Assembly (NCBI GenBank): GCA_907165135.1 | Contig: CAJRAX010000008.1 | Coordinates: 1 to 64,000, forward strand | Direction of reading: 5' to 3' | DNA: 64,000 nt | Source: Oikopleura dioica | Taxonomy: Eukaryota > Animalia > Chordata | Notes under the pieces: model-generated | Databases searched by the model: none | Told to the model about the DNA's origin: nothing | What the model saw: the letters and a program-made list of their open reading frames with translations, nothing else | Program-made: the position numbers and the translations under genes | Shown: positions 21,648 to 55,038 of the stretch, in pieces | Position numbering within the stretch: position 1 is the stretch's first letter | How the letters are laid out: the number at the start of each line of letters is the position of its first letter

Positions 21648-22101
21648 ATTCTAAAAATGTCCGAATTGCCAAAAGAAACATTGATATCAATCCTCGCTGA
21701 TTTTGGCGAAACGCATTCTCCTACAGATAACAAATCAGAATTAGGTAATAAAGTGAAATTTTGGATCATCAAGAATCATAATAATTGGCAAAAATCAAGC
21801 TCGGGAGAGTTGCTTTTTCTAGCTATTTTGCAAATAAAAAGAGAAACACCTCTTTCGCAGTTTTCTTTATACGAACTCAAGTGTCTTTGTTCCTTTTATT
21901 CTCTTGAAAAAATTCCAAACACGTTTATTAACAAAAAATCAAACATTCGTGAATTTATTATCGCTCAATTTTCTTCTTTCTTTCCAAATCATCCGACAAA
22001 AAATGGTGAACTTGTTTTTTATCCAGACACTTGAGCTCGATATCGGGCTAAAAATATTCGAAGGCAAAAGATGCTCATTTAAGACCCTGGCGTGGCCATG
22101 G
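21645..22101 (+). mobile_element. 3' end of an upstream Gypsy-A copy sharing the next LTR (tandem arrangement)
   Basis: Matches 32299-32755; TTC microhomology at 21645-21647. Confidence 0.9.
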
Positions 22102-23268
22102 TGATACCTTCTGAATAAACAACAAAAAAAAATGAAAAAAAATATTGCTCACAAATAAGCCCGTAGTGCATGAAAAAAAATCAATAAGAGCCATATTGAT
22201 TTTCCCTTGAGCCCTTAACTAAGTGGGTAAAGTTTTTTCGTTAATTTAATCAGAGAAAAATTAAGGGTTCAAGGGCTTTCTCAAAAATAATAATTGGTTA
22301 GGGAGTTACTGCACGTACGCGTGTATCACAACTATAAATCATTGCATGAAAAGGATGATTGTTAAATCGCTTAGAATCACACATATCTATGCCTTTATTT
22401 ACAGTGTTGATTGTAAATAAAAGTATAAGAAGCTCTTAGGACAATTATTTCTGAAAAAATCTTTTCTTTCTGTTATAAAAAAAATTCTACGAACCGCTGA
22501 GGAACGACTGCTGCTTCTCTTCCTTGATTTTCTTCGACGTTGGGACTTATCATCCTTACATGCTTCGCTTCCACGAAAGTGGCTTTTCGCAAAGTAGCCT
22601 GGAGCAGAATATCTCAATATGGCAAACCGCGAATTTAAGCGCGACATGGTAATCAAAGCTTTCGAGCCCGTTACGGCTGCCTTTTTAGTTTTTCTGACCA
22701 AAAGACGAAGATTGCAACTACACAGCGTGCCGATTGTGGAGACAACAACGACTACTACTTCTACTACAACTTGGACAACGATTTAAACGCCTGGAACGAC
22801 TACGATTTGCTTAACGGCTTTGGAAACCTAGAAATACTCTATCAATTGGTGGGTCACATAGTGAGAAAACCGGTTGAAAGAGTCATTTCAAGAAAAATGC
22901 GCCAGCTGTGGCAAAGAAAAATACAGAAAAAATGAAATTTTAAAAGGACGAAAATTATGTAACCGCGATCATTGGGGTTACATAATGAAGATTATGAAAA
23001 TTATATAATGGCTATTTTGCCTTTGGAAAAATTAAAAATGAAAAATTTCATCAGAAAGTTACATAACGCGAGCAACAATGGACAAAAATGGCGCCATGAC
23101 TTCTTAACAATGGAAATCCAGCGCGAACCGGTTGGCAAAAACTTGACCTTTTCCATTTTCAAAATTTGCTCTTCATTCTTGATCTTTCAATAAATCACCA
23201 ACAGCAATTAAAATTTTTTAGTATTTATAGCAAGAATCGTTTTGAGAAAATTAGCAGGAATCGTATCA
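22102..23268 (+). repeat. LTR-A (5' LTR of the full copy and 3' LTR of the upstream fragment)
   Basis: TGATACC...CGTATCA termini; direct repeat of 32756-33920; TATAAA near 22333. Confidence 0.95.
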
Positions 23269-23269
23269 A

Positions 23270-23280
23270 TGGCGGCCACG
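23270..23280 (+). promoter_or_regulatory. Primer binding site of A, TGGCGGCCACG (tRNA-Arg-like)
   Basis: 1 nt after the LTR end; resembles the complement of metazoan tRNA-Arg(CCG/TCG) 3' ends as recalled; host tRNA not checked. Confidence 0.6.
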
Positions 23281-24220
23281 GAAGACTCAATCAACACAAA
23301 GCCTGATCTTGGGACACTTTCAAGTAAGATGTTAAAACTTCCGCAGGAAATTTTAATGGCCCATTTGCCGGTTAACTCTGATAATCAAAAATTTACGCCC
23401 AATATGCCTGATTATGAATTTTCACTTGCCAAAACCAATCTGGCAGACCGAATTAATCAATTTTCATCGTTATTTGACAAAAGCTTGGAATTTTTTTCCT
23501 TAGAATCCGATTCTGAGCTAAAAGCTCAATTCGAAAGAAAATGCATTGATTGTCTACGAAACTCCTGTAGCACAGAATTTTTGAGTCAGTTTGGAAGAGA
23601 ACTCGCGTCTTTTACCACATTTTCGGAGGCACTTGATTTTTTGGATGATATTTTCGGAGAACAGTCTGATGAGGACCGTAAAGAGAAAGCTTTTTGTGAG
23701 CTTGAAAATTTGACAAGACGGACTGATCAGAATGAAAAATATTCGAGTTTTTTGAAGCGAATTAAAACTTTAGCGGCACAAATCAATGAGAAGGCTGATG
23801 CTCAGTCTTTTATTGTTGAGCAAAAATTCAGAAAGAATTTGGAACCATCAAATTTGTCATTTTTAAAAGACCATTGTTTTCATAAAAAATCTTGCGAAGA
23901 AATTTCGGAATTTTTAGATTCTCGAGAGAGGCATTGCCTTGCTCAGATTTCTGCCGTTAATGGAGCAAAAATTGATTCATTTATGGGAGAAACAAAGGAA
24001 CTTTTAAATGAACAGCTTTCGGCGATTTATGCCAGTAATCGTAGAGTTCAGGAGGACCACGAGAAAAAATATGAGGAGTTTTCTGAGGCTATAAAAGAGC
24101 TGAAAGCTACTGTAGCAAAATGGGAAGTTTCTAAAACAAAACCCCAATCCAATAATACACCGCAAACGAAAAGGTTTCCGAGCCCCCAATTTTTTCAAGG
24201 CCCAAATTCCGGTATAATCC

Positions 24221-24757
24221 GGTTGTCACTTCCAACCTTTCGGGATCCCGAATGTTTCGGGATTTCCCGAATCTTTCGGGATTACTCCCGAATCTTTCAG
24301 GATTTCCCGAACCTTTCGGGATCGTCCAAATCTTTCGGGATTTTAAGTAAGGATAACATAAGAAAAAGTGGTATAAAAGCCGAATTAGGGCATTTCCCTA
24401 ATCAAAAATATAACTCTATCCGCCTTCGTTGAATTCGATGGTCTAAGAAGGCCAGAGCTTTTATAAATGTTGAATTTGTAGTCAAAGAAAATATATGCGC
24501 TCCGCGCCCGTCTTATAGAGAACCTTATGAGTTTTAGATCCACAATTCTTCGAGTAAAATATTTTTTTCCTTCGCGCCTTCATTTGCTTCAATAAAGATG
24601 TACTTCGACGTTACTGTTTGGGTTTAAATATTTTCTTTGACAGAAATTATTGAAAATTGATCCCGAAAGGTTCGAAGACAAAAAGGCCCTTTTTTGCTGC
24701 AAACGTTTCGGGAAATCCCGAAACATTCGGGATCCCGAAAGGTTGGAAGATTCAACC
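24221..24757. mobile_element. 537-bp non-autonomous TIR element (MITE; Mutator/Foldback-like)
   Basis: 9-bp TSD GTATAATCC at 24212-24220 and 24758-24766; ~50-bp TIRs (GGTTG..CTTCCAACCTTTCGGGATCCCGAA..) with subterminal TTCGGGAT repeats; no transposase ORF. Confidence 0.9.
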
Positions 24758-25028
24758 GTATAATCCCCCCTCAACAGTCATATTCATCACGGCAATTTAA
24801 CCCTCCAGCTTTTCCTCAGCGTCCGCGTTTTCAAGCTCCAAATTTTCAACAAATCGGCGCCCCTTTTTGTAATCTCTGCCAGCAGTTCGGTCACATTAAA
24901 CGACGCTGTAGTCAAATTATTTGCCATTTCTGCGGAGAACGCGGACATGTCCAGCGCGACTGTAGGCGCCAGCAATTTTTTCAAAATAATTCGCAAACCC
25001 AACCTTCTCAGAATAATCAACAGAATTC

Positions 25029-25077
25029 GGGAAACGCATAATCGGGTGGAGTTCTGGTCAAACGTCCAACCCGACTA
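25029..25077 (+). promoter_or_regulatory. -1 ribosomal frameshift signal of A: G GGA AAC plus hairpin
   Basis: Canonical X XXY YYZ heptamer at 25029-25035; pol lies in the -1 frame; TCGGGTGGA/TCCAACCCGA stem 6 nt downstream. Confidence 0.8.
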
Positions 25078-28000
25078 TTTTTATTAGTTCTGTAAATACA
25101 GTAGGTCGTCAACATTTTATACGTGCTCAACTTTTTAATAAAAACATAAAACTCATGATTGATACTGGTTCAATGATCAATATTCTCAATAAAGAACATG
25201 TGCCAGCTTCAGTCAAGATACAAAAAAATGATATAAAAATCTGTGCTTACAATAACACTGATGTTTCAGTTCTTGGCTTCATTGAAACAGATATTTTTCT
25301 TAATGGAACAAATTGGGGAAAAGCCCGATTTTATGTCGTTTCGGGAGGTCTTCAGTCAATTTTGGGTTCAGGAACAATCGAGGAATTAGAACTAAGTTTA
25401 AATTTAAAGCGAAGAAGAATAGTGAAAAGTGGCCCAATCGAGAGAATGGCTAAGATTTTTGAGCTTAAAACTAGTTTATTGAGCGATATTCCGGAGGAAG
25501 ATGATATTTTTGAAGAAATTGATCCTCGCAACGAAGAGGATAATTTTCAAGATGACAAAGTTCTCGAAGCCATATTTTCTGACACAATGACATTCAAGCC
25601 AAGAACAGAGACATTGGTGGATTTGTTTGTACCAAATATAAAAAGCAAAAAGTCATTTTTTTTTGAAAATTCGTTACTTGAATCGTGCCCACTTGAATTT
25701 ATTCCGAGTTTACAGGAAATAAGTGAAGACGATCCGATTTACCGGGTCCTTATTTTAAATAGATCGGACACTACTATAAAAATTAAAGGAGGAACAAAAG
25801 CCCTTAATCTTTGCGAAGCCGCTAAAATCGGTCAAATAAAGGATGACGTTTTACATTCAATTTTAGAAAAAATAAAAATTGGTAATATTTCAAAGAAAAA
25901 TGAGTTGATATTTTTCGACTTAATTCGTGAATTTGCATTTCTACTTTTAGAGGAAGGAGACGATCTCCCAGCGTGTTCGATTGCTGAATTTTCAATAGAT
26001 ACATTTTGTCCAGTCCCAATTTCTACTCCCCCTTATAGAACGCCTTTTGCATTGCGTAAAAAATACAAAGAAATTTTAGATTATTATTGCAATAAAAAAA
26101 TTATTGAACGTTGCGTTTCTCCTTGGTCGAGCCCGGCATTATTAGTAAAAAAGAAAAAACGGTAGTTGGCGGCTCGTTGTCGATTATAGAAAGCTTAACA
26201 AATTCACATATCAAATTCATTATCCCCTACCGAGTCTGGAAGACTCGCTAACATTTTTACAAGATAGTACATATTTTTCTAACGTTGATCTCTTTAAAGG
26301 TTTTCATCAGATTAAAAACACAGAAGAAACCGCAGATAAAACAGCATTTAGTTGCGAGTTTGGTCAATTTCGCTTTTACGAATGCCAATGGGAACAACCA
26401 ACTCACCGGGTTTTTTATGTTAATAATGGACCAAGCCCTCAAAGATATTCCAAAACCCAAGTCCTCGCTTATATGGACGATGTGGCAGTGCTCGGTAAAA
26501 CCGAAGAAGAACATTTAAAAAATCTAAGAAAATTTTTTGTCACGCTCTCGACCAATAATCTAAGATTGAATATAAATAAGTGCTCTTTTTCGATAAAGAA
26601 ATTGACTTTTGTGGATTTAACGTTAAAGATGGAAAAGTAAAACCATCGAAAGATAGAGTAAGAGCTGTTAAAAATCTTATCCTTCCTACTTCAAAAGCCG
26701 AAGCTCAGTCAGTTTTCGGAGCCTTGAATTTTCACCGGAAATATATTGCAAATTTCGCGTCAATTGCAAAACCTATAACAGAAACATATCGAGGTAATTT
26801 TAAGTGGACCCAAGAAGCATCAGACGCTTTTAATTTTCTTAAAAATTTGATCTCGGAAAAAGCGCTTGAATTATTTATACCGCCGGTTTCTGGTGGAAAA
26901 TTTGTGGTGGAGTGTGATGCAAGCGACCGGAGTTTTGGAGGAGTTCTATATTTGTGCTCGGAAAAGATTTTTCAGAAAACCATGTTCATAATTCCGGTTG
27001 TTTACGGCCATGCGCATATCACAGCGGTAATTTTTCTGACACGCAGATCAAGTATACGATTTTCGAAAAAGAAATTTTGGCCTCTAGAATTTGTATTAAT
27101 AAGTGGAGCGTTTACCTTAAATACACCAAATTTGATTTAATAACAGACAATGGAAATATGAAATATTTAAATTCGCTAAAAACAAATAATTCAAGAATTC
27201 AAAGATGGATAGCTGAGCTTATGACATTCGATTATAAAATTCTTCAGAAACCATCAAGCGCTCTTAAGATTTCAGATTATCTATCAAGATACCCCGGGAA
27301 AACAGAAAAACCACAATATCTCTCCTTAAAATCGATCCAAAAAATTTTATCGAGCTTCAAAAATTGGACCCAATTTTACGGCTTATAAGGGAATACGTCA
27401 AAATCGACAGATGGCCGAATAATCCGACAGAAAAGATTTCATATTATCTATTGCACCGGAAAAAATTATGTTTTCTTGAATCAGGGGAGCTCATTTTGAG
27501 AGAAGGAAATCTGGACAAATTTTGCGTACCAGAAGTTTTGCGTTCCGATCTTATGCATGAATATCATAAAGGTGGTCATTCTGGAATAGAAATAACATTT
27601 TCAAAATTAAATCAGAAATATTTTTGGGAAAAAATGCGCCAAGATGTAATCGAGTTTATCAGATCATGCAAATACTGTCAATTGAGTAAACCAAATTGTA
27701 ATCCAAATAGAGCCGCCCCAAAAACATTTCCATCTCCAACAGGGCCTTATCAACAAATGGGTTTTGATATGATCGGTCCTCTCCGGCCGACGGACAGTGG
27801 AAATATTTACATTTTCACCGCTATTGATTTTTTTAGTAAAAAAGCGTATGGATTGCCATTAAATTCCAAAAAATCAGAATACCTTCTCAATAAATTTAAG
27901 TCTATTCTCTTTTCGAACCCAATTTTTCCAAAATTGTTAATTTTCGATAACGCTCCTGAATTTTCCAAAATTCGTGAATTTTGTGCGGAAAATAACATCG

Positions 28001-28689
28001 AGCTAAAAACAAGCCCACCAAGACATCCAGCAACTAATGGCAGTGTCGAGAATTTCAATCGAACGCTAAAGAGCCGGCTCAAAGCCCGATGTCAGTTTAT
28101 CAATTGGGATCATTGTCTTTCTGAAACCCTTCATGAAATTAATAGTTCAAAGCATTCAGTCACAAAATTTTCTCCATTTTCAATAGAAACAGGGATTGAG
28201 GTTCCACATTTTTTGAATGACCCAAACTGGAGAGAGTATAGGGATAAAATTGATATTGATTTTCAAGCCATAAAAGATAATATCGACGAAGAAAAATCTC
28301 GGAGATGTGCAAGACTAAAAAATGATAAATTCCAAGAATACGCCCTGAATGAAAAAGTCTTGATAAGAAATTTTCGATCAAACAATCCTCCATTTATTGG
28401 CCCTTACATAATTGTCAATAAAACGCCCACTGTGTATTCTTGTCGAGATCTAGAGACGGGCAAAATTCTTGTTCGCCATGCAAACGATTTAAGGAAATTT
28501 TACGAGCGCAAAGATTCAATTCCCTTAAATTTCAATCATGATAGTGAGAAGAAAACAAGAGACTGTCTCGATAATAAAAATTCGATTAATGAGCTAACAT
28601 ATGTTGAGTTTTTCTCCATCACGGCAGAACATCAATCGCAATTTGAATTTCCGAAAAATTCTATGTCGGACTCGGAATCATCAACAACA
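25035..28689 (+). pseudogene. pol: Gypsy-A pol, first copy (PR-RT-RH-IN), several frameshifts, ends at the duplication junction
   Basis: ORF pieces 25155-26165, 26580-27140, 26954-27388 and 27364 onward; the breaks fall in homopolymers. Confidence 0.9.
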
Positions 28690-28690
28690 T

Positions 28691-31600
28691 TCCTTATTTT
28701 AAATAGATCGGACACTACTATAAAAATTAAAGGAGGAACAAAAGCCCTTAATCTTTGCGAAGCCGCTAAAATCGGTCAAATAAAGGATGACGTTTTACAT
28801 TCAATTTTAGAAAAAATAAAAATTGGTAATATTTCAAAGAAAAATGAGTTGATATTTTTCGACTTAATTCGTGAATTTGCATTTCTACTTTTAGAGGAAG
28901 GAGACGATCTCCCAGCGTGTTCGATTGCTGAATTTTCAATAGATACATTTTGTCCAGTCCCAATTTCTACTCCCCCCTTATAGAACGCCTTTTGCATTGC
29001 GTAAAAAATACAAAGAAATTTTAGATTATTATTGCAATAAAAAAATTATTGAACGTTGCGTTTCTCCTTGGTCGAGCCCGGCATTATTAGTAAAAAAGAA
29101 AAACGGTAGTTGGCGGCTCGTTGTCGATTATAGAAAGCTTAACAAATTCACATATCAAATTCATTATCCCCTACCGAGTCTGGAAGACTCGCTAACATTT
29201 TTACAAGATAGTACATATTTTTCTAACGTTGATCTCTTTAAAGGTTTTCATCAGATTAAAAACACAGAAGAAACCGCAGATAAAACAGCATTTAGTTGCG
29301 AGTTTGGTCAATTTCGCTTTTTACGAATGCCAATGGGAACAACCAACTCACCGGGTTTTTTTATGTTAATAATGGACCAAGCCCTCAAAGATATTCCAAA
29401 AACCCAAGTCCTCGCTTATATGGACGATGTGGCAGTGCTCGGTAAAACCGAAGAAGAACATTTAAAAAATCTAAGAAAATTTTTTGTCACGCTCTCGACC
29501 AATAATCTAAGATTGAATATAAATAAGTGCTCTTTTTTCGATAAAGAAATTGACTTTTGTGGATTTAACGTTAAAGATGGAAAAGTAAAACCATCGAAAG
29601 ATAGAGTAAGAGCTGTTAAAAATCTTATCCTTCCTACTTCAAAAGCCGAAGCTCAGTCAGTTTTCGGAGCCTTGAATTTTCACCGGAAATATATTGCAAA
29701 TTTCGCGTCAATTGCAAAACCTATAACAGAAACATATCGAGGTAATTTTAAGTGGACCCAAGAAGCATCAGACGCTTTTAATTTTCTTAAAAATTTGATC
29801 TCGGAAAAAGCGCTTGAATTATTTATACCGCCGGTTTCTGGTGGAAAATTTGTGGTGGAGTGTGATGCAAGCGACCGGAGTTTTGGAGGAGTTCTATATT
29901 TGTGCTCGGAAAAGATTTTTTCAGAAAACCATGTTCATAATTCCGGTTGTTTACGGCCATGCGCATATCACAGCGGTAATTTTTCTGACACGCAGATCAA
30001 GTATACGATTTTCGAAAAAGAAATTTTGGCCTCTAGAATTTGTATTAATAAGTGGAGCGTTTACCTTAAATACACCAAATTTGATTTAATAACAGACAAT
30101 GGAAATATGAAATATTTAAATTCGCTAAAAACAAATAATTCAAGAATTCAAAGATGGATAGCTGAGCTTATGACATTCGATTATAAAATTCTTCAGAAAC
30201 CATCAAGCGCTCTTAAGATTTCAGATTATCTATCAAGATACCCCGGGAAAACAGAAAAAACCACAATATCTCTCCTTAAAATCGATCCAAAAAATTTTAT
30301 CGAGCTTCAAAAATTGGACCCAATTTTACGGCTTATAAGGGAATACGTCAAAATCGACAGATGGCCGAATAATCCGACAGAAAAGATTTCATATTATCTA
30401 TTGCACCGGAAAAAATTATGTTTTCTTGAATCAGGGGAGCTCATTTTGAGAGAAGGAAATCTGGACAAATTTTGCGTACCAGAAGTTTTGCGTTCCGATC
30501 TTATGCATGAATATCATAAAGGTGGTCATTCTGGAATAGAAATAACATTTTCAAAATTAAATCAGAAATATTTTTGGGAAAAAATGCGCCAAGATGTAAT
30601 CGAGTTTATCAGATCATGCAAATACTGTCAATTGAGTAAACCAAATTGTAATCCAAATAGAGCCGCCCCAAAAACATTTCCATCTCCAACAGGGCCTTAT
30701 CAACAAATGGGTTTTGATATGATCGGTCCTCTCCGGCCGACGGACAGTGGAAATATTTACATTTTCACCGCTATTGATTTTTTTAGTAAAAAAGCGTATG
30801 GATTGCCATTAAATTCCAAAAAATCAGAATACCTTCTCAATAAATTTAAGTCTATTCTCTTTTCGAACCCAATTTTTCCAAAATTGTTAATTTTCGATAA
30901 CGCTCCTGAATTTTCCAAAATTCGTGAATTTTGTGCGGAAAATAACATCGAGCTAAAAACAAGCCCACCAAGACATCCAGCAACTAATGGCAGTGTCGAG
31001 AATTTCAATCGAACGCTAAAGAGCCGGCTCAAAGCCCGATGTCAGTTTATCAATTGGGATCATTGTCTTTCTGAAACCCTTCATGAAATTAATAGTTCAA
31101 AGCATTCAGTCACAAAATTTTCTCCATTTTCAATAGAAACAGGGATTGAGGTTCCACATTTTTTGAATGACCCAAACTGGAGAGAGTATAGGGATAAAAT
31201 TGATATTGATTTTCAAGCCATAAAAGATAATATCGACGAAGAAAATCTCGGAGATGTGCAAGACTAAAAATGATAAATTCCAAGAATACGCCCTGAATGA
31301 AAAAGTCTTGATAAGAAATTTTCGATCAAACAATCCTCCATTTATTGGCCCTTACATAATTGTCAATAAAACGCCCACTGTGTATTCTTGTCGAGATCTA
31401 GAGACGGGCAAAATTCTTGTTCGCCATGCAAACGATTTAAGGAAATTTTACGAGCGCAAAGATTCAATTCCCTTAAATTTCAATCATGATAGTGAGAAGA
31501 AAACAAGAGACTGTCTCGATAATAAAAATTCGATTAATGAGCTAACATATGTTGAGTTTTTCTCCATCACGGCAGAACATCAATCGCAATTTGAATTTCC

Positions 31601-32688
31601 GAAAAATTCTATGTCGGACTCGGAATCATCAACAACAGAATCAAGCTCTGATAGTTTAGACATCGAGGAATTCAAAAACACGCTCATTTTAAAGGATTAC
31701 GAAAATCTAATAAACTTAAATATAATTGAGATTTTTAAAGAGGCTTATCTCGAGGTGAAGGAAATCTCACAAAGTAATCAGGGGATATTCAAAATGTTAG
31801 TGAGGTCAATGAGAGAGATGACATTTTTGAGGAAACTTCATTAGAGGATCTCGATATCGTAGCGGGTTCGTCAGCAATTTTACCTTCTAGAAATCAAACT
31901 GTTCGTCAGATTGAATTTTCGGGCGACTTAACATCATATGACAAACTTGATATAAGTGCAAATAGAAACGCCAAACGCGCAAGGGGAAGCTCTGGAGAAT
32001 TGTCGGATAACCAAGTTTCTAAAAAGCCTTTTCTCATTCAAAACCAGTCAATGCCCCGAGTCAAACAGTAAAAATTCGACAACAAATTGATAAAACTATT
32101 TTGATGGACTCAGAAATAACGCAAAGCTCTGTTCGACTTCCAAAAACAAGAACAAACGAATTAATGAATGAAGCAGAAATGCTTGATTTTGAAGGTTGCC
32201 AGATTGGTATTATTTTGGAAAACAAAAACGAGAATTTTTTTAACGAAGTAAGGCAGGGATTACATGATTTTAAAAAGAATAGGAAAATCGGTAATGGGTT
32301 CATTCTAAAAATGTCCGAATTGCCAAAAGAAACATTGATATCAATCCTCGCTGATTTTGGCGAAACGCATTCTCCTACAGATAACAAATCAGAATTAGGT
32401 AATAAAGTGAAATTTTGGATCATCAAGAATCATAATAATTGGCAAAAATCAAGCTCGGGAGAGTTGCTTTTTCTAGCTATTTTGCAAATAAAAAGAGAAA
32501 CACCTCTTTCGCAGTTTTCTTTATACGAACTCAAGTGTCTTTGTTCCTTTTATTCTCTTGAAAAAATTCCAAACACGTTTATTAACAAAAAATCAAACAT
32601 TCGTGAATTTATTATCGCTCAATTTTCTTCTTTCTTTCCAAATCATCCGACAAAAAATGGTGAACTTGTTTTTTATCCAGACACTTGA
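28691..32688 (+). pseudogene. pol: Gypsy-A pol, duplicated second copy (RT-RH-IN plus C-terminal extension)
   Basis: ORF 28997-31267 (YMDD, CDAS, HHCC, DDE), then 31254-31844 and 32101-32688, separated by homopolymer frameshifts. Confidence 0.9.
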
Positions 32689-32755
32689 GCTCGATATCGG
32701 GCTAAAAATATTCGAAGGCAAAAGATGCTCATTTAAGACCCTGGCGTGGCCATGG

Positions 32756-33920
32756 TGATACCTTCTGAATAAACAACAAAAAAAAATGAAAAAAAATATT
32801 GCTCACAAATAAGCCCGTAGTGCATGAAAAAAAATCAATAAGAGCCATATTGATTTTCCCTTGAGCCCTTAACTAAGTGGGTAAAGTTTTTTCGTTAATT
32901 TAATCAGAGAAAAATTAAGGGTTCAAGGGCTTTCTCAAAAATAATAATTGGTTAGGGAGTTACTGCACGTACGCGTGTATCACAACTATAAATCATTGCA
33001 TGAAAAGGATGATTGTTAAATCGCTTAGAATCACACATATCTATGCCTTTATTTACAGTGTTGATTGTAAATAAAAGTATAAGAAGCTCTTAGGACAATT
33101 ATTTCTGAAAAAATCTTTTCTTTCTGTTATAAAAAAAATTCTACGAACCGCTGAGGAACGACTGCTGCTTCTCTTCCTTGATTTTCTTCGACGTTGGGAC
33201 TTATCATCCTTACATGCTTCGCTTCCACGAAAGTGGCTTTTCGCAAAGTAGCCTGGAGCAGAATATCTCAATATGGCAAACCGCGAATTTAAGCGCGACA
33301 TGGTAATCAAAGCTTTCGAGCCCGTTACGGCTGCCTTTTTAGTTTTTCTGACCAAAAGACGAAGATTGCAACTACACAGCGTGCCGATTGTGGAGACAAC
33401 AACGACTACTACTTCTACTACAACTTGGACAACGATTTAAACGCCTGGAACGACTACGATTTGCTTAACGGCTTTGGAAACCTAGAAATACTCTATCAAT
33501 TGGTGGGTCACATAGTGAGAAAACCGGTTGAAAGAGTCATTTCAAGAAAAATGCGCCAGCTGTGGCAAAGAAAAATACAGAAAAATGAAATTTTAAAGGA
33601 CGAAAATTATGTAACCGCGATCATTGGGGTTACATAATGAAGATTATGAAAATTATATAATGGCTATTTTGCCTTTGGAAAAATTAAAAATGAAAAATTT
33701 CATCAGAAAGTTACATAACGCGAGCAACAATGGACAAAAATGGCGCCATGACTTCTTAACAATGGAAATCCAGCGCGAACCGGTTGGCAAAAACTTGACC
33801 TTTTCCATTTTCAAAATTTGCTCTTCATTCTTGATCTTTCAATAAATCACCAACAGCAATTAAAATTTTTTAGTATTTATAGCAAGAATCGTTTTGAGAA
33901 AATTAGCAGGAATCGTATCA
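32756..33920 (+). repeat. LTR-A (3')
   Basis: Direct repeat of 22102-23268; followed by satellite. Confidence 0.95.
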
Positions 33921-36367: not shown

Positions 36368-37918
36368 TGATACAAACTCTAGTCCTGATTGCAATTAAAA
36401 TCTAATAATCAAATTTAATTTATGTTCTGCAAGAAAATCCAACAAAAAATTTTTTGCTTTCGCGGTTTTTTGTTTATTATGAGACTGATTTCATTTTTGG
36501 CGGTGAGCGAAATTGCAGGAAAGGCGCAGCTGCAAGTTCATAAATAAGAAAACAATAACAGCACGCTCACAAAGCGTGATCAAAACAAGGACAAGTTCAC
36601 CAAAGTTCTTCCGGTCGATCAATAAGAGATCCATTTCAGATCAAATTCTTGCGCTGGAGCCGGGTTCTCGCAGCATTTTTTGTTTCGTGTATGGCGAACA
36701 GGTGAAGGGTTGAACAATAATTCAGCAAACGGCGCGCCAAATTGTCGCAGAATAAAATAAGAAAGATTAAAACAAGCATAAAGAAAGATTATAATTTAAA
36801 TTGGCCAGTAATTAAAATTATAATTTTACGAAAGGGATGAAATATTTTTTTGATTTTTTGATTATTTTTTTAAAAAGGAATAACATAAATTACAGAAAAA
36901 GAGACATTAAAAATTACGATAAAATAAATTATATACAGAGTCAAAATAAACTCTGGCTCACCTTGCGATGCTTATTGACGCGGTTTGCTGTACGCGCTAC
37001 TTTGCGTCAAGCCCTATCGAAGACAGGGAATCGCAGGGTGCCCAAGTATCTGCAGCTTGAAGCTTGCCATCCGGCCCGCCCATGGGTGCCATTTGGAGTT
37101 AATTTTGAAGAGTTGGCGAGGCGGTAGAACTCGCATCCGCGTCGAGAGCAATCGTCGTTGATTTCCAAAGAGGAACAGAATAAAATAAAGCCGCAAGCTA
37201 GTTATTTAAGAAAATTAACCCTCGAACACTTGGGTCTAGTTGCTAATCAAGAATTTTAATTAAAATTAACCCTCGAACTCTCGGGCTATTTTTAAGGAGA
37301 GAAGAGAAGAATTCAGCAATTTTAAAGAAAATTAACCCTCGAACACTCGGGTTAAAAAAGTAATCAGGAATTTTCTATAAAATAAAGTTAACCCTCGAAC
37401 ACTCGGGTTTTCATGCCAAATTTTTAATCAATAATAACGAGCAATAAGTAAATGAGCATGCGCAATTTCGAACGTGCGGTAAGGACGATATTTCATTTTG
37501 GAATTTTGGGAACTAAGCGACAAAATTTTGAAGCCTTTTGGATGTGTAATAATAATTGTACAGTTATTTTATATGCACGCGTACGTGCTGTAAAATCCTA
37601 ATAGTTGCCGCTTAATCTTTATCCCTAACCGAAGCTTCAATGGGAAGCATTTTCAAAGAGTCGGCCGCTCGCTGGCTTTAGAGGTCTACTGAGGTTCTAG
37701 CTCCGTAGCAGACATAAAACCGCGAGAAGACCTTTTACCGTGGTGAGATGGAGTTTTTGGACCGTGAAGAGACGTTTTTGGGCGGAAATTTCGACGCCAT
37801 CTTTTAAAAATTTGTTGTGTGAATTTGGGGAGTATTTTGAGGCTTAGTTTGAGCTCAATTTCGCCGGTGACAGTTATCAAAGATTTTTTTTTCTCTCTTT
37901 TTTTCCGGTATTGTATCA
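36368..37918 (-). repeat. LTR-B (3')
   Basis: TGATACAA...TTGTATCA inverted termini; 1551 bp. Confidence 0.97.
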
Positions 37919-38061
37919 CTGTGACCACTCATGGGTCCGGAACTATTTTTCTTCCATTCTTTTTTGCCAGTGAATACAATCATTTTTTCCCGGAAAGATA
38001 CTGTTTAAAAAGCGTGGCTAATTGAGCTCAAGCCACAAAATACTTTTTGTAATTATCTAAT

Positions 38062-41000
38062 CTAAACAGCCGTTTCTGGACTAAAAATGAGTTCACCATT
38101 GGCGCGCTCATGATTTGGAAATTTATCGGAAAAAAATTGATCGATAAGCTCTCTCGCTTCGTATTTTCTGAGATGATAAACACCTTTTATATCGTGAAAA
38201 GCGGCGAGCGCTTTTAATTCTGGTTTACTAAACTCGCTTAATTTTGTTGGCTTAAGAACTAGAAAAACTCCGTAAAATAAAAACTCTCCGTTAGAAGCTT
38301 TTTTCCAAAATTTAAAATTTTGCTGAATATGATTTCTTACTCTTACTTTTAATTCGGAAAAATCGTCTCTATCCCAATGTTCTAATTCAAATTTATCAGC
38401 TATGTATTTGAGCATTAGAAATGATAGCTCACTGAGCTTGCAAAAAATGCCTTTATCGACAGACATATTTTGCTTGCACTGTTCATAAATTTGGTCAAAT
38501 TGTTCAAAAAGTTCCTGGTTTTCATTTTGTAATTTAAAATTTATCGAAAAATCCATTCTGTTAGTTTCTCCGCCTAGTGCTATTTCAAAATTGTCACTGT
38601 CTAGAATCTGACATTTTTTGCCAGAAGGCCCCGAAGAAGAGTCTTTAGAAGACTCTCTTTCGCGTTTTTTAGGGTTAGACGGATTATGACTTACATCTAA
38701 TTGATCAAAACTGGTAAGATTAGGGGGAATGATCTTGGTCTCTGTTTCGGTAATGCGCTCAAGGTTTTGATTATCTAAACTTGAGCTTTCGGATGTTTCA
38801 ACATAATTTTGGACTTGATCATTATTAACTATCGGGGAATCTACAGAAGTAGGGCTATTGTTATCGGATTTTTTGGGCGTATTGAGATCGGAAAATGAAA
38901 ATTTTTTATTGATATTTTGAGGTACCGGGCTATTTTGGTCGGAGTTTTCTGAAGAATCAAGGTCCGAAAAAGTAATTTTCTTGCGGATATTCTGGGGCTT
39001 TGGGGCTAAACTAGGGGTATTATGCGGAGGAACCGGCTCTCTCGTCTCGGGCGCAGCATTGCTCGGAATCGGCTCTGCCTGGGCTTCACAGCCGTCATCA
39101 GTTATTTTGGGCTGAAAACTGATTTTCTTAGGAAATTTTAGCATGACAATTGGGTCAATAAGAGCCTGATCCGGATTCTCATTTCCAAAATCACTATCTG
39201 AACTCGTCTTAAGGTCGTCAATCGAAGTCGTCATCTTTTCGGACTCTGTACTCCTTTGGTCGAATTCAGAGCAATTTTCAGAGACAGGGTCTGAAATTTC
39301 ATTCGGCGACTGTACAATCTTTTCATTGGAGCTTCTACTTTCGGACCTCTCACGATAATTTATTTCTTTCGATTCAAGTTCCTCGTTTATTTCTTTTTCA
39401 GAAATAAGTGTTGCCTCAGAAAATTCATTTGCTCTAGGAGCGCTCACAGCTACAGGGATAAACAAGTCCTCCTCATCTTCTGACTCAAATTCCAGTTGCG
39501 GTAACAAATTAGAACGCACAATCTCTGGCGCTAACTCAGCAGTTTCATCCGCATTTTCATCAACAATCTTCCCCCCTTTCGGCTCAATAAATTTCCTTAG
39601 ATCACAACCGTGTCTTTTATACTCATTGCCGGTTTTTGAATCCTTCAGAGTATACCAGGTTGATTTCGGAGATTTGTCAACGATCAGAAAGGGCCCGACA
39701 AATGGTGGAAAACGCAACTTCAGATTTTTCATTAAAACTTTCGAACCAATTTCATATTCGACGTAGTGAGAATTGCTATATTTTTCGACTCTCTTATTCT
39801 TTTCCATTTCAATCTTTTGCTGTATTTTCTCAAAATCAATGTCAATCCTTTCTCCGTACTTTCTAAAAAGCGGATCATTTGGATTGTGGACTTCAGCGAC
39901 GCCGGTTTCAATTTGAAAAGGGCTGAACTCAGAGACGGAATGGATACTTCCATTTATCGCATGAATAACTTCATAGATATGGCGATCCCAATTATTCATT
40001 TCACAACACGCGCGAAGACGAGCTTTTATAGTACGATTGACAACTTCGATACCACCGTTAGTTTGAGGATGATACGGCGGGCTCAATTTATGTTCGATTC
40101 CTTTTTCTTTCAAAAACTCAGCTACTCCGTAGAATTCAGTTCCGTTATCAGAAAGCACGCTTTTTGGAATGTGTGGAATAGCAAAAATAATCCTTTTGAA
40201 TTTTTCCAAGACTTCGATTTTATTTTTGGATGCAAGAGGCTCCGCGTAAACTTTTTTTGAGAAAAGATCAACTGCTGTCAAACAAAATTGCATATCATCG
40301 TCTGTCGGTCTCAAGGGCCCGATTAAGTCAATTGCAAGGCTCTGGAAGGGAGCAACAGGGGTCACACTTTTTCCGAGAGGTGGACGGTTCGGATGAGTAT
40401 TTGGCTTAGCCGCTTGGCAATGCGCGCATGATCGAATAAATTCCGCGACCGACTCGCGCATGCCGGGCCAAATATATTTTGCCGAGAGCTTTTTAAAACA
40501 AATATCGATACCTTCATGAGCTGGCTCATGGTAATTCTGGACAATCGAAAGAACGAGCTGATCTGGAACACACGTGCGAGTTTGACCGACAAAGTCGAGA
40601 AGCGCGAGGCGCCCATCTTCTTCGATTTTTAAATTATCTCGATGTAATTTATAGAAGACGATTTTCCTATCTGTAGTTAAATTTGGCCAACGATCAATTT
40701 TAACGAATTTTAAAACTTCAGCAAGAGTTGGATCAAGGAGCTGAAAATGAACGAAATCCCCTTCCGAAAAGTTTATTTCGCTGATAATAGCTTTTTCGGT
40801 TTTTTCTTTCGAGCGGCTAAGATAGTCGCTAATTTTCATGTCTCTCGATTTGCGCTGAATTGGATTAAATGAGAACCCTTGGATATTCATTATCCAGCGC
40901 TGGATCTTACGATTACTCGTTTTTAGAGAATTGATAAATCTTAAGCATGAATTATCCACCAACCAGTCAAATTGAGTAAACAATAAATAGGGCGCCCAGC

Positions 41001-43110
41001 GTTCCATACAAGTCATGCCACTAAATAGCTCTTTTTCGACCGTGACGTACCGAACTTGTGCCTCTGAAAAATTCCCAGAATGGTACGCGATCTGGCGTAG
41101 ACAACTTTCGTCGTGTTCATGTGAAAGATTAGGAAAACGGCAAAAGGAAAGACACCCGCCGTAGCCAGTTTCAGAAGCATCGGTTTCAAGGACAAATTTA
41201 CAATTTTTTGGAGGCAAGGACAGCTCTAAACAATTGCTCGTTATTATCTCTTTCAATTTTTTAAGTGCTACTGTAGCTTCCGAGGTCCAACAAAATTTCC
41301 CTCTGTAAGACTTAGTGATTGGAAGAGCTATCTCCGCAAATCCCTCAATAAAGCGTCTGTGGCTTGAAAGAGCCCCAAAGAGCGAAATTGCTTCGTCACG
41401 ATTCTTCGGAACGCCGCGTTCGCTTATCGCTTCTACTCTACTTTTCGATGGCCTTATACGTCCTTTTTCGATTTCATAACCGAGAAAATCAACTTTTTCA
41501 ACACAAAAAACCGCTTTTCGCGCATTTAGCCTCAAGGAGTTAACTGCAAGAATTTTGAAAAATTTTTCCAAATTTATCAAATGACTCTCAAAATCCGGAC
41601 TGTGAACAATCAAGTCATCAAGATACGCCGTAATTTCCGTGCGCGGAATATCCTCCAAACATTTATCGACAACTTTTGCAAAAAAAGATGGACTGTTCTT
41701 AGTGCCCATCGGCATCCGGCAAAATTGATATTGACCGAACTCGCTGCTGAATGCAGTTTTCTCTTTCGAGTCTGGACTCATCTCCAGCTGGTGGAAGCCT
41801 TTCATAAGGTCACACACACTGTACACTCTACTATCTGCTAACAAGTTTAGTGTGTCTTCAATATTCGGTAGCGGGTGATTTGCCTGAATTGTGACTGAAT
41901 TTAAGCGTCTAAAATCAATCACCAATCTAAAAGAACCGTTTCGTTTTCTAACCAGAAGCAGTGGTGAATTCCATGGACTATTCGCTTTTTCGATTATTCC
42001 GTGCCGCTCAAATTCGTCTAAAATTTCTCTGAGCGCCGGACGTAGACTGTACGGAGTGCGATAAGGAGGAGAACAAACTGGGGGATGATCACCGGTATCA
42101 ATTACAAACTGACCGATTTTTGAAGCAGGGAGACAATCTTCCTCGTCCAAGAAAAGAAACCAGTATTTTCTAATAAAATCATAAAATCGTTCTTTTAATT
42201 CCTCAGGTAACGGGCCAATTTTTATTTTACTCAGAATGCTCTCAAAAGTTTCTGAACTTTCCGTTTGAATATTTGAGATTTGTACCGCTGGAAAAAGCTT
42301 TGCAAAGACTGTGCCACGCGGAATTTTAATACTAGCATCAGTGGGATTTATAACTAAAATTCTGAACAATTTTTTGTCGCCCTCAACTGTCTGAATAGAT
42401 GGAATTAATTGTAATTTAGAGTTTTCAAGAGAAGACTTTTCGAAAAACAAATTCGACGTATTTTTCAATCCGACAACCTCACAGTCAAATATTGTTTCCG
42501 ACTTTCCTCTGAAAGTGCGACTTTCCAAAGATACCGCATCAAATCCTTCCTTGGCTTCAATAAAGGGATTTGCTTCTAAGTGATTTTTGCACTCAATAAA
42601 GGCCGACTCTTCAAACCCAGAATCAAATTTTTCTGGACCCTCTGATAACGCACTAACTCTCACATCACTATTTTTCTCACAAAGGTCTGCGTGCCTCGTT
42701 ATCGGTCCAGCTTGGATCATTTTACGTCGTTTGAGATTCAGAAGACAGTCATTTCCCTCTAAAAAATTACTACCTAAAATCGAAGAATATTCATCCGGAA
42801 CTACATAAAGTTTAGCTTTACCCCAACTGACTGAATCAATATTTATCGCCGCTTCGATGAATCCTTCAATTTTCATCGCACTATTATTAAACGAATTCAC
42901 TACTAGAGATGAGCTTTGAATTTTGCAGTTTTTCGGAACGAATTTTTTCTGAATTGTGCAAATTTGGCTACCTGTATCAACTAAAAAACGAACTAGAGAG
43001 TTCAACACAGATGCATTCACAAAATATTGTCCGCCAACTTGAGCTAGACTGTTCGCGAGAATACTAATTTCAGGAAGTCCGTTCTGGCCAAACGGGCTCC
43101 CATCCATTAG
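38062..43110 (-). CDS. pol: Gypsy-B pol (PR-RT-RH-IN, acidic linker, tandem C-terminal domain), intact 1681 aa
   Basis: LVDTGS, YLDD, ETDAS, HEPAH..CAHC, DLIGP, SDNGTEF, NGGIE, FPPFVGPF. Confidence 0.97.
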   Translation of the reverse strand, partial: LMDGSPFGQNGLPEISILANSLAQVGGQYFVNASVLNSLVRFLVDTGSQICTIQKKFVPKNCKIQSSSLVVNSFNNSAMKIEGFIEAAINIDSVSWGKAKLYVVPDEYSSILGSNFLEGNDCLLNLKRRKMIQAGPITRHADLCEKNSDVRVSALSEGPEKFDSGFEESAFIECKNHLEANPFIEAKEGFDAVSLESRTFRGKSETIFDCEVVGLKNTSNLFFEKSSLENSKLQLIPSIQTVEGDKKLFRILVINPTDASIKIPRGTVFAKLFPAVQISNIQTESSETFESILSKIKIGPLPEELKERFYDFIRKYWFLFLDEEDCLPASKIGQFVIDTGDHPPVCSPPYRTPYSLRPALREILDEFERHGIIEKANSPWNSPLLLVRKRNGSFRLVIDFRRLNSVTIQANHPLPNIEDTLNLLADSRVYSVCDLMKGFHQLEMSPDSKEKTAFSSEFGQYQFCRMPMGTKNSPSFFAKVVDKCLEDIPRTEITAYLDDLIVHSPDFESHLINLEKFFKILAVNSLRLNARKAVFCVEKVDFLGYEIEKGRIRPSKSRVEAISERGVPKNRDEAISLFGALSSHRRFIEGFAEIALPITKSYRGKFCWTSEATVALKKLKEIITSNCLELSLPPKNCKFVLETDASETGYGGCLSFCRFPNLSHEHDESCLRQIAYHSGNFSEAQVRYVTVEKELFSGMTCMERWAPYLLFTQFDWLVDNSCLRFINSLKTSNRKIQRWIMNIQGFSFNPIQRKSRDMKISDYLSRSKEKTEKAIISEINFSEGDFVHFQLLDPTLAEVLKFVKIDRWPNLTTDRKIVFYKLHRDNLKIEEDGRLALLDFVGQTRTCVPDQLVLSIVQNYHEPAHEGIDICFKKLSAKYIWPGMRESVAEFIRSCAHCQAAKPNTHPNRPPLGKSVTPVAPFQSLAIDLIGPLRPTDDDMQFCLTAVDLFSKKVYAEPLASKNKIEVLEKFKRIIFAIPHIPKSVLSDNGTEFYGVAEFLKEKGIEHKLSPPYHPQTNGGIEVVNRTIKARLRACCEMNNWDRHIYEVIHAINGSIHSVSEFSPFQIETGVAEVHNPNDPLFRKYGERIDIDFEKIQQKIEMEKNKRVEKYSNSHYVEYEIGSKVLMKNLKLRFPPFVGPFLIVDKSPKSTWYTLKDSKTGNEYKRHGCDLRKFIEPKGGKIVDENADETAELAPEIVRSNLLPQLEFESEDEEDLFIPVAVSAPRANEFSEATLISEKEINEELESKEINYRERSESRSSNEKIVQSPNEISDPVSENCSEFDQRSTESEKMTTSIDDLKTSSDSDFGNENPDQALIDPIVMLKFPKKISFQPKITDDGCEAQAEPIPSNAAPETREPVPPHNTPSLAPKPQNIRKKITFSDLDSSENSDQNSPVPQNINKKFSFSDLNTPKKSDNNSPTSVDSPIVNNDQVQNYVETSESSSLDNQNLERITETETKIIPPNLTSFDQLDVSHNPSNPKKRERESSKDSSSGPSGKKCQILDSDNFEIALGGETNRMDFSINFKLQNENQELFEQFDQIYEQCKQNMSVDKGIFCKLSELSFLMLKYIADKFELEHWDRDDFSELKVRVRNHIQQNFKFWKKASNGEFLFYGVFLVLKPTKLSEFSKPELKALAAFHDIKGVYHLRKYEARELIDQFFSDKFPNHERANGELIFSPETAV

Positions 43111-44242
43111 TTTAAAGATTTTGGGGGTTGAGCGCCTTCAGGAACTTTGCGCTTGTCACAATTCTTTGCCATGTGCCCAAGCTGGCCACAGACAAAACAG
43201 GTTATTTTAGGGCATTCTGATCGCCAATGCTCGTCTGTGTTGCAAGGTCGACAAAATCTGGTTCTAGCCCTCCACTGACCTTGGTTCGGGGCTGAAAATC
43301 CTTGGCGAGTTTCACCTAGGTTACTAGGCTGAAAGGGAAAGCGCGGGCCATAGGGGCGAGGGGGAATATCACGATTTCGATTATTTTCTAACGCGCTAAT
43401 TTTTGCCGTAAGAATTGAGATCTGATCAAGAAGCCGTCCATTCTGCTCCTCAGCTCTGGCCTGCGTAGCCGTAACTGTCTGTTCAAAATTTTTGGCTTGC
43501 TCAGCAAGCAAAACCGACTGCTTCTCCATCAAATCACTAATCTGTGACTGGAATTCTATTTTATTAATATGGGCTGAGGGGCTTGTTTTTAAGTGGCGCT
43601 TCCTTGCGTCAAGGTACTCCGCGATGTTCTCTACTGTCTCATCCCACTGCAAATTATCAAGCAAAAAGCTCCTGTTTGCCGGGCTTATTGATTTTTTGAA
43701 TTTTTCTGAAATAATAAAATTCTGATTAATTTTGTTCTCAGTAATCAGCCCGGCAACAGATTCGATTCGCTTTAAAAACCGAGCAAATGTCTCCGACCTA
43801 TCAACATTTCGAGCCAAAGATTCTAACGAATCTTTTGCTCGCTGAACTCTCTCCTCTGGCGATTCCTCTTGGAAAAGAGACGAAATGAGCTCAAGTTTTT
43901 CGTCCGCGTCCTCGATGCGAGCCAATTCCTCCCCATGTTCCCGAAAAATTCCGCTCCGCAGCAGTGCAGAACAAAGTCTCCCGCGAGCTCGTTGAACTGA
44001 GCCTCAAGTTCATTCTTGTTTGATGAAGGGTAAGCCTCTAGAGCTCTGTTCAAACTCCATTTTGCCCGGGCTATTTTGTTCCGCACGCTCTTAAGCAGTA
44101 ATTTCATCTCAAAAAATTTCATTCTAGAATTGAACCCTTGCCCAGGGGGTGATGAAAATAATGTGGCCGAATTTAAAATCTCTTCAGGCATCTTACTTTT
44201 GAGAAGTGTGGGTTCTGTCTTCGCACCTTCGTTCGTCTCCAT
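43107..44242 (-). CDS. gag: Gypsy-B gag (one apparent 1-nt frameshift near 43940)
   Basis: ORFs 43823-44242 and 43107-43925 join to a protein colinear with gag-A and gag-C; knuckles CRPCNTDEHWRSEC and CFVCGQLGHMAKNC. Confidence 0.88.
43110..43116 (-). promoter_or_regulatory. -1 frameshift slippery site of B: T TTA AAC
   Basis: Immediately before the gag stop; pol in the -1 frame; GGAGCCCGTT/AACGGACTTCC hairpin downstream. Confidence 0.8.
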
Positions 44243-45794
44243 GATACAAACTCTAGTCCTGATTGCAATTAAAATCTAATAATCAAATTTAATTTATGTT
44301 CTGCAAGAAAATCCAACAAAAAATTTTTTGCTTTCGCGGTTTTTTGTTTATTATGAGACTGATTTCATTTTTGGCGGTGAGCGAAATTGCAGGAAAGGCG
44401 CAGCTGCAAGTTCATAAATAAGAAAACAATAACAGCACGCTCACAAAGCGTGATCAAAACAAGGACAAGTTCACCAAAGTTCTTCCGGTCGATCAATAAG
44501 AGATCCATTTCAGATCAAATTCTTGCGCTGGAGCCGGGTTCTCGCAGCATTTTTTGTTTCGTGTATGGCGAACAGGTGAAGGGTTGAACAATAATTCAGC
44601 AAACGGCGCGCCAAATTGTCGCAGAATAAAATAAGAAAGATTAAAACAAGCATAAAAGAAAGATTATAATTTAAATTGGCCAGTAATTAAAATTATAATT
44701 TTACGAAAGGGATGAAATATTTTTTTTTGATTTTTTGATTATTTTTTTTTAAAAAGGAATAACATAAATTACAGAAAAAGAGACATTAAAAATTACGATA
44801 AAATAAATTATATACAGAGTCAAAATAAACTCTGGCTCACCTTGCGATGCTTATTGACGCGGTTTGCTGTACGCGCTACTTTGCGTCAAGCCCTATCGAA
44901 GACAGGGAATCGCAGGGTGCCCAAGTATCTGCAGCTTGAAGCTTGCCATCCGGCCCGCCCATGGGTGCCATTTGGAGTTAATTTTGAAGAGTTGGCGAGG
45001 CGGTAGAACTCGCATCCGCGTCGAGAGCAATCGTCGTTGATTTCCAAAGAGGAACAGAATAAAATAAAGCCGCAAGCTAGTTATTTAAGAAAATTAACCC
45101 TCGAACACTTGGGTCTAGTTGCTAATCAAGAATTTTAATTAAAATTAACCCTCGAACTCTCGGGCTATTTTTAAGGAGAGAAGAGAAGAATTCAGCAATT
45201 TTAAAGAAAATTAACCCTCGAACACTCGGGTTAAAAAAGTAATCAGGAATTTTCTATAAAATAAAGTTAACCCTCGAACACTCGGGTTTTCATGCCAAAT
45301 TTTTAATCAATAATAACGAGCAATAAGTAAATGAGCATGCGCAATTTCGAACGTGCGGTAAGGACGATATTTCATTTTGGAATTTTGGGAACTAAGCGAC
45401 AAAATTTTGAAGCCTTTTGGATGTGTAATAATAATTGTACAGTTATTTTATATGCACGCGTACGTGCTGTAAAATCCTAATAGTTGCCGCTTAATCTTTA
45501 TCCCTAACCGAAGCTTCAATGGGAAGCATTTTCAAAGAGTCGGCCGCTCGCTGGCTTTAGAGGTCTACTGAGGTTCTAGCTCCGTAGCAGACATAAAACC
45601 GCGAGAAGACCTTTTACCGTGGTGAGATGGAGTTTTTGGACCGTGAAGAGACGTTTTTGGGCGGAAATTTCGACGCCATCTTTTAAAAATTTGTTGTGTG
45701 AATTTGGGGAGTATTTTGAGGCTTAGTTTGAGCTCAATTTCGCCGGTGACAGTTATCAAAGATTTTTTTCTCTCTTTTTTCCGGTATTGTATCA
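44242..45794 (-). repeat. LTR-B (5')
   Basis: Direct repeat of 36368-37918; on minus it is followed directly by PBS-position TGGAGACGAACG. Confidence 0.97.
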
Positions 45795-53884: not shown

Positions 53885-53892
53885 TAGTGACC

Positions 53893-55005: not shown

Positions 55006-55038
55006 ATCGCGAGCCCAATTCTGACCAAATTTGGGTTC
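54996..55038 (+). promoter_or_regulatory. Probable -1 frameshift signal of C: imperfect A AAA TAC plus hairpin
   Basis: pol in the -1 frame; GAGCCCAA/TTGGGTTC stem downstream; the heptamer is non-canonical. Confidence 0.6.

What the first reader, a model, noticed from the sequence alone, without database searches (positions are those of the whole stretch)
32739..32755. No polypurine tract: a conserved tRNA-end-like, PBS-complementary motif abuts each 3' LTR
Seen: A has CCCTGGCGTGGCCATGG|LTR; C has CCCTGGCGTGGCCATAC|LTR (59671-59687); B has CCCATGAGTGGTCACAG|LTR (37919-37935, minus). The consensus CCCnnGnGTGGYCAY is not purine-rich. Its complement matches the PBS of A (GGCCACG, 7 nt) and of C (9 of 11 nt); B's matches C's GTGACCA rather than its own PBS. 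Known: LTR elements normally prime plus-strand DNA from a PPT at this position. Inference: unconventional plus-strand priming (tRNA-derived or structured primer) or 5'-3' RNA circularisation.
Basis: partly seen in the sequence, partly recalled or inferred. Interest (0 to 1): 0.7.

Follow-up and report, generated by a model that had tools for sequence, protein, structure and literature searches.

The report
Primer mirror replaces retrotransposon polypurine tract
A clade of jumping genes, likely from the tunicate Oikopleura, lacks the purine-rich signal that normally starts the second DNA strand and carries in its place a conserved 17-base motif that mirrors its first-strand primer site and likely serves as the second-strand primer.

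Summary
Observation confirmed and extended. A, B and C are env-less Ty3/Gypsy elements in a 170-bp satellite near a chromosome end; their clade contains an Oikopleura dioica pol record (AAT48675). All 16 examinable 3' junctions (3 window, 13 metagenome loci) lack a polypurine tract (PPT) and share a 17-nt motif ending CA-NNN|LTR. It mirrors the PBS core exactly in register (5.1 of 8 against 0.8-3.2 when slid). The PBS fits published tRNA-Arg ends best of four tested. Own PBS and motif show no clear covariation (p 0.13-0.33 in register; free duplex p 0.02, 0.07 without A and C). The motif never has CCA where a tRNA would (0 of 16). Three sister-clade elements keep its LTR-anchored skeleton but lose the PBS match. 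Best reading: a non-purine plus-strand primer site cut from the element's own RNA (0.5). Second-tRNA priming, bipartite PBS and direct circularisation are weaker. No cDNA ends or host tRNAs were available, and Volff 2004 could not be read. The scan noted similar PPT-less, PBS-mirroring junctions on plant and fungal DNA (unchecked).

The parts
32739..32755 (+). 17-nt motif at the PPT position of element A (3' LTR)
22085..22101 (+). second copy of A's motif, before A's upstream LTR (tandem or rearranged copy)
22102..23268 (+). A upstream LTR, TGATAC...GTATCA, 1167 bp
   Evidence: 1165 identities, 2 gaps against the 3' LTR
23270..23281 (+). A PBS, 1 nt after the LTR, overlapping the gag ATG; pairs 12 of 12 (one G-U) with a published tRNA-Arg(UCG/UCU) end
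   Evidence: pairing read directly from the sequences
23212..32688 (+). A gag-like and pol ORFs, broken into several frames, with an internal 2.9-kb duplication
32756..33920 (+). A 3' LTR, followed by the 170-bp satellite
36368..37918 (-). B 3' LTR
37919..37935 (-). 17-nt motif of element B
38062..44003 (-). B gag (CCHC) and pol (PR-RT-RH-IN plus long C-terminal extension)
44230..44241 (-). B PBS, degenerate, directly after the 5' LTR
44242..45794 (-). B 5' LTR; target-site duplication CCCGA
52836..53884 (+). C 5' LTR, TAATAT...GTATCA; target-site duplication ATAAC
   Evidence: 1044 of 1049 identical to the 3' LTR
53885..53896 (+). C PBS, beginning TAG instead of TGG; no other letter listed there in contigs of 4 of 4 runs
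53869..59603 (+). C gag (CCHC) and pol (PR-RT-RH-IN plus C-terminal extension), open frames
59671..59687 (+). 17-nt motif of element C
59688..60736 (+). C 3' LTR
61760..63310 (-). 3' LTR of D, a B-family copy cut by the window end
63311..63327 (-). 17-nt motif of D, identical to B's

Best explanation
The motif is a conserved non-purine sequence that occupies the polypurine-tract position in this Gypsy clade and likely is the plus-strand primer site, a piece of the element's own RNA that RNase H would spare and cut at a fixed distance from the LTR. Shown: the position, the conservation, the absence of a PPT, and the mirror relation to the PBS core. Inferred: minus-strand DNA is primed by a tRNA-Arg(UCG/UCU)-type tRNA on a short, drifting PBS. 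Because the LTR has inverted ends (TGATAC...GTATCA), the tRNA-DNA junction and the motif-DNA junction read alike (acceptor-strand core, one base, three bases, then TGATAC). RT/RNase H would thus meet nearly the same substrate when it removes either primer. In this reading the motif imitates the primer end for the enzyme; it does not pair with the PBS.
For: 16 of 16 junctions lack an abutting purine run (purine fraction 0.47-0.67 in the last 15 nt) and keep C-16, G-8, C-5 and A-4 invariant. The 3 of 3 outgroup loci with a resolvable 3' LTR start show an ordinary purine-rich PPT (L001, L053, L066). The motif keeps a fixed LTR-anchored register, which a site defining the LTR's left end must do (established knowledge; Ty3 review PMC5371799, passages). 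The mirror match peaks at slide 0. In one subfamily the motif holds while the PBS drifts: L015 and L020 have the same motif, while L015 and L018 (near-identical to L020 in RT) have different PBSs. Sister-clade L026, L027 and L028 keep C-17, C-16, T-9, G-8 and A-4 but lose the PBS match. PPTs have no common consensus and are recognised by their cognate RT (PMC3185511 and PMC5371799, passages).
Against: No cDNA end, primer or RNase H cut was observed. The motif is about 45% pyrimidine, far beyond the single-pyrimidine exceptions in the review read, so its RNase H resistance is unexplained. The loci junctions were located with a motif-anchored pattern after the pol stop; only B and C have independent boundaries. 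All 16 share one ancestor, so the mirror may be a single accident (about 1% by the interior-window frequencies). The free-register duplex test gives a small own-pair advantage (p 0.02). L003 and L004 differ at two motif positions under an identical PBS, so the motif is not rigid. L011's LTR start is irregular. Host tRNAs were not available.
Confidence: 0.5

Rival explanations
1. Dual tRNA priming: after RNase H clears the RNA, a second tRNA-Arg, probably trimmed of CCA, anneals to the motif's complement on minus-strand DNA and primes the plus strand.
For: The motif lies in tRNA register (positions 60-73, CC at 60-61; numbering from established knowledge) and mirrors the PBS core. Earlier unchecked scan notes describe CCA-ending mimics at this place in plant elements.
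Against: The CCA position reads TAC 6, TAG 4, CAG 4, TTG 1, TGG 1. Position 73 is A in 16 of 16, while 11 of 27 PBSs imply G73. Position 65 is a purine in 16 of 16, while the PBSs imply a pyrimidine in 25 of 27. Identity to the published Arg ends is only 5.4 of 9. The sister clade loses the match.
Confidence: 0.13
2. Bipartite primer-binding site as in Ty3: the short 5' PBS takes the tRNA's 3' end, and the freed 5' acceptor strand and T-arm pair with the motif, bridging the RNA ends. This can coexist with the best explanation.
For: The PBS is strongly conserved over only about 6 nt, as in Ty3, whose PBS is split between the 5' and 3' ends (PMC5371799, passages). A tRNA-like sequence near the 3' end of HIV-1 promotes strand transfer (title in the reference list of PMC6468702; paper not read). 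A second box, AAAAGAYGCTC-like, lies 25-36 nt upstream in 9 of 16.
Against: It does not explain the exact LTR-anchored spacing or what primes the plus strand. It cannot be tested without host tRNA sequences. The invariant A-4 is not predicted by it.
Confidence: 0.14
3. Direct PBS-motif pairing circularises the RNA or self-primes it.
For: A and C form -17 kcal/mol duplexes. Mean own -10.9 against cross -9.7 (p 0.02), and with the LTR ends added -18.1 against -15.4 (p<0.001). C's family has TAG instead of TGG in 4 of 4 runs; L011 and L021 have TGA.
Against: Fixed-register tests are not significant (p 0.13-0.33 core and extended; 0.5-0.6 tail). The advantage drops to p 0.07 without A and C, and permutations ignore kinship. 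B's own duplex is -5.4. The motif's CC has no partner in the PBS. TGG is kept in 24 of 27.
Confidence: 0.1
4. The motif is simply a lineage-specific non-purine primer site, and the PBS resemblance is a coincidence with no role.
For: One ancestral origin; the core is only 6-8 nt; the sister clade works without the resemblance.
Against: The match peaks exactly at the mirror register and persists over a clade whose RTs are only about 49-68% identical.
Confidence: 0.1
5. An ordinary upstream A-rich run is the real PPT, and the motif does something else.
For: A-rich runs lie upstream in C, L005, L011 and B (10-27 nt).
Against: They sit 17-50 nt from the LTR at no fixed distance and are only 6-7 nt long in A, L039, L015, L017 and L023. 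Integrase trims only a few nucleotides (established knowledge).
Confidence: 0.03

Closest known systems
Tor (Ty3/gypsy Oikopleura retrotransposon) elements; pol record AAT48675.1 (Henriet et al. 2015, PMC4402516, passages; Volff et al. 2004 not held)
   Same: AAT48675.1 is 67% identical to C over RT-RH and nests inside the A/B/C clade (SH-aLRT 99, quick tree). Same gag-pol layout.
   Different: No env was found in A, B or C. The Henriet text has no occurrence of 'PPT' or 'polypurine'. Which Tor group this is (recalled: env-less Tor1 or Tor2) was not determined.
Yeast Ty3 (PMC5371799, passages)
   Same: Ty3/Gypsy; short 5' PBS; the PBS is not rewritten from the tRNA each cycle, which would allow the PBS drift seen here.
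   Different: Ty3 has an all-purine PPT upstream of U3; its 3' PBS half lies in U3, not at the PPT position.
Tf1 self-priming (PMC7175516, passage)
   Same: An element sequence is complementary to the PBS.
   Different: Tf1's primer is the first 11 nt of the transcript and serves the minus strand. Here the complement lies outside the LTR, at the PPT position; the best in-LTR match is 7-8 of 11.
Dictyostelium DGLT-A and Skipper (PMC5006619, passages)
   Same: DGLT-A has a TGGCGAC-type PBS with no matching host tRNA found; Skipper has non-canonical priming.
   Different: DGLT-A keeps a PPT; Skipper's oddity is at the minus-strand site.

Membership tests
Ty3/Gypsy LTR retrotransposon | pol order PR-RT-RH-IN; gag with CCHC knuckle | tested here: met
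   Pfam, (B and C complete; A in pieces)
Ty3/Gypsy LTR retrotransposon | Two LTRs with short inverted ends and a 4-6 bp target-site duplication | tested here: met
   B and C have 5-bp duplications; C's LTR starts TA rather than TG; A not checkable
Ty3/Gypsy LTR retrotransposon | tRNA-complementary PBS after the 5' LTR | tested here: inconclusive
   TGG in 24 of 27; mean 10.1-10.6 of 12 pairs with other animals' Arg(UCG/UCU) ends, 9.5 with Trp (4 of about 190 listed ends tested, chosen by eye); host tRNAs not available
Ty3/Gypsy LTR retrotransposon | Polypurine tract abutting the 3' LTR | tested here: not met
   0 of 16 junctions; 3 of 3 outgroup controls have one. This is the variant feature.
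Tor elements of Oikopleura | Pol falls among Tor sequences | tested here: met
   AAT48675.1 [Oikopleura dioica] lies inside the clade. That this record is a Tor pol is recalled; the record is named only 'pol protein'.
Tor elements of Oikopleura | Assignment to group Tor1, 2, 3a, 3b, 4a or 4b | not tested
   No named group references were available
Tf1-type self-priming elements | Transcript 5' end (inside the LTR) complementary to the PBS over 11 nt | tested here: not met
   Best in-LTR match 7, 7 and 8 of 11 for A, B, C; transcription start unknown
Ty3-type bipartite PBS | A 3' segment complementary to the primer tRNA's T or D arm | not testable with these tools
   No host genome or tRNA set

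The most novel reading that the evidence does not exclude
This clade primes both DNA strands from tRNA ends: a second, CCA-trimmed tRNA-Arg anneals at a mirror-image primer site on minus-strand DNA and starts the plus strand. The PPT is dispensed with, and both cDNA ends are made by one symmetric mechanism, perhaps shared with PPT-less Arg-primed Gypsy lineages of plants and fungi.
Probability: 0.13. Interest if true: 0.88.

Novelty: new variant of a known kind. Interest (0 to 1): 0.6.

Why it matters
The PPT is treated as a near-universal feature of LTR elements, and how RNase H selects it is described as largely unknown (PMC3185511 abstract). A recently active clade (LTR pairs over 99% identical) with a roughly 45%-pyrimidine site that mirrors its tRNA primer gives a natural test of whether RT recognises both primers by one rule. 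It also means PPT-based LTR annotation will misjudge such families. If a tRNA primes the plus strand, that would be a priming route I found no description of.

Tried and rejected
No host genome is held. ARAGORN found no tRNA in the window or in 45 loci. Rfam at E<=10 found no tRNA-like match over 32300-33000. Local hairpin: RNAalifold gave no consensus structure; the 5-pair hairpin was paired in 62.7% of cells against 60.6% shuffled, with one pair showing a double change in three related loci, so it was rejected as the main feature. LTR-end hexamers show no own-pair covariation (p 0.27). RNA runs: no RNA holder was listed; 12 and 2 partial reads were laid, which is no evidence on expression or transcript ends. 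The first relaxed pattern was one base too long and was redone; the relaxed form is unspecific. For 12 of 15 sister-group loci I could not locate a 3' junction. L039 and L043 were left out of the tree, which is the quick version (the careful search did not finish). The atlas search of the pol tail gave only leads of 0.82 or less. Literature: eight searches on priming and two on Tor listed no paper whose title, abstract start or passages read describe a PBS mirror in place of a PPT; two searches returned none at all. Volff 2004 is not held and may describe the Tor junctions.

Full report
Setting. The window is a chromosome end: 5.2 kb of TAACCC repeat, a rearranged region to about 32.3 kb, then a 170-bp satellite interrupted by LTR elements. 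A, B, C and a partial B-family copy D carry Gypsy-order pol domains. B and C have open gag and pol frames, LTR pairs over 99% identical, and 5-bp target-site duplications. A is broken and internally duplicated, and both of its LTRs are preceded by the same 457 bp of interior. No env was found. The cluster of a 67%-identical relative contains AAT48675.1, pol of Oikopleura dioica, which nests inside the A/B/C clade. The host is therefore likely Oikopleura and the family Tor; the group was not determined.

Observation.

Clade survey. A metagenome scan returned 79 loci (best 80 of 430 confirmed). A quick ML tree of RT-RH puts A, B, C, AAT48675 and 24 loci in one clade (SH-aLRT 99); L039 and L043 were left out of the tree and assigned by similarity. 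Thirteen of these 26 loci reach a 3' junction, and all 13 show the motif. These junctions were found with a motif-anchored pattern within 220 nt of the pol stop (for L031, at the contig start), and are supported by a TRATRN-like LTR start resembling the element's own LTR end; L011's start is irregular. Over 16 junctions the last 15 nt are 47-67% purine. C-16, G-8, C-5 and A-4 are invariant; C-17 and G-10 hold in 15 of 16. The longest purine run within 60 nt is 3-27 nt long and lies 17-50 nt from the LTR. Of the 18 loci with distant direct repeats, three outgroup loci gave an independent 3' LTR start, and all three have an ordinary PPT.

The PBS. The 27 PBSs begin 0-1 nt after the LTR and overlap the likely gag start codon. 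TGG is intact in 24; conservation is strong for about 6 nt and loose after that. They pair best with published tRNA-Arg(UCG/UCU) ends (10.1-10.6 of 12, G-U allowed) against 9.4-9.5 for a Trp end and an unassigned end. These four ends were picked by eye from the supplement of PMC13524379 and come from other animals. C's PBS starts TAG, and contigs from four runs in three studies list no other letter there, so it is a family trait. In Ty3 the PBS is not rewritten from the tRNA (PMC5371799, passages), which would permit such drift.

Relation of motif to PBS. The match to the PBS core peaks exactly in the mirror register, 5.09 of 8 against 0.81-3.15 for slides of 1-6 nt. But the two do not track each other. 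In 15 elements with both ends, own pairs beat cross pairs by only 0.2 base (p 0.13-0.33). Free duplex energy gives p 0.02, falling to 0.07 without A and C; adding the LTR ends gives p<0.001; these permutations ignore kinship. L015 and L020 share one motif while L015 and L018, which is near-identical to L020, differ in the PBS. L003 and L004 share one PBS and differ in the motif. The motif's CC has no partner in the PBS. Where a tRNA has CCA the motif has TAC, TAG, CAG, TTG or TGG. It has A at position 73 and a purine at 65, where the PBSs imply G (11 of 27) and a pyrimidine (25 of 27). No conserved fold was found.

Sister clade. Three of 15 sister-group loci have a candidate junction (L026, L027, L028); L028's is backed by a perfect inverted match to its own LTR end. 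They also lack a PPT and keep C-17, C-16, T-9, G-8 and A-4 relative to the LTR, but not the PBS complement, although L028's PBS is of the same type. What is oldest is therefore an LTR-anchored skeleton, as expected of a site that sets the left end of the cDNA.

Mechanism. Most likely (0.5) the motif is the plus-strand primer site, cut from the element's RNA. Because the LTR ends are inverted repeats, the tRNA-DNA and motif-DNA junctions read alike, and RT/RNase H may process both by one rule. Position, conservation and mirror relation are shown; priming, cleavage and the primer tRNA's identity are inferred. Rivals: bipartite PBS (0.14, compatible with the above), second tRNA (0.13), direct pairing (0.10), coincidental mirror (0.10), upstream purine run (0.03).

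What is known. Reviews describe the PPT as purine-rich, without a consensus and with single-pyrimidine exceptions (PMC3185511, passages). Tf1 self-priming and Skipper concern the minus strand. PMC2864245 and PMC6317226 (passages) mention no PPT-less lineage in the places searched. PMC11042837 (passages) shows tandem elements sharing one LTR, a possible origin of A's layout. PMC4402516 (passages) does not mention a PPT. Ten library searches found no description of this arrangement, but Volff 2004 could not be read, and subscription journals and Repbase are not covered. Earlier scan notes report similar PPT-less, PBS-mirroring junctions in plants and fungi. They are unchecked, I could not test kinship (one search found no look-alike), and they are not counted as support.

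Verdict. A real, clade-wide departure from the canonical LTR plan in a known element family: new variant of a known kind, interest 0.6.

Noticed in passing
window 33921-36367, 45795-52835, 60737-61759: B, C, D and A's right end all sit in the 170-bp satellite, at different positions of the unit. A contig of run X4 shows a C-family LTR end joined to the same satellite position as A. This suggests satellite (possibly centromere) targeting.
   Followed up: partly
window 54927-59603 (C pol residues about 1170-1558); B 38062-39500: Pol has a 400-500 residue extension after integrase, ending in a conserved domain of about 170 aa (35-44% identity between A's piece and relatives). No Pfam hit; weak HeH/SAP-like atlas leads at 0.80. 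Candidate targeting domain.
   Followed up: partly
window 5202-32299: A patchwork of over 99% identical inverted and direct copies of A fragments and of a 47-50% GC element whose ORFs (11191-12856, 15306-17873) have no Pfam hit. Either fold-back rearrangements at a chromosome end or amplification/assembly chimeras.
   Followed up: partly
window 23269-23330, 53884-53945, 44241-44180 (minus); L002-L007: The PBS overlaps the likely gag start codon, and a splice-donor-like AAGGTAA/AAGTAAG site followed by a second ATG lies 30-60 nt downstream.
   Followed up: no
window 53885-53887; L011 6751-6753; L021 395-397: The PBS starts TAG or TGA instead of TGG in elements with open pol frames; C's TAG is shared by contigs of four runs.
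   Followed up: partly
window 32719-32730; L003, L004, L006, L008, L015, L017, L020, L023: A second conserved box, AAAAGAYGCTC-like, lies 25-36 nt upstream of the 3' LTR in 9 of 16 elements; role unknown.
   Followed up: partly
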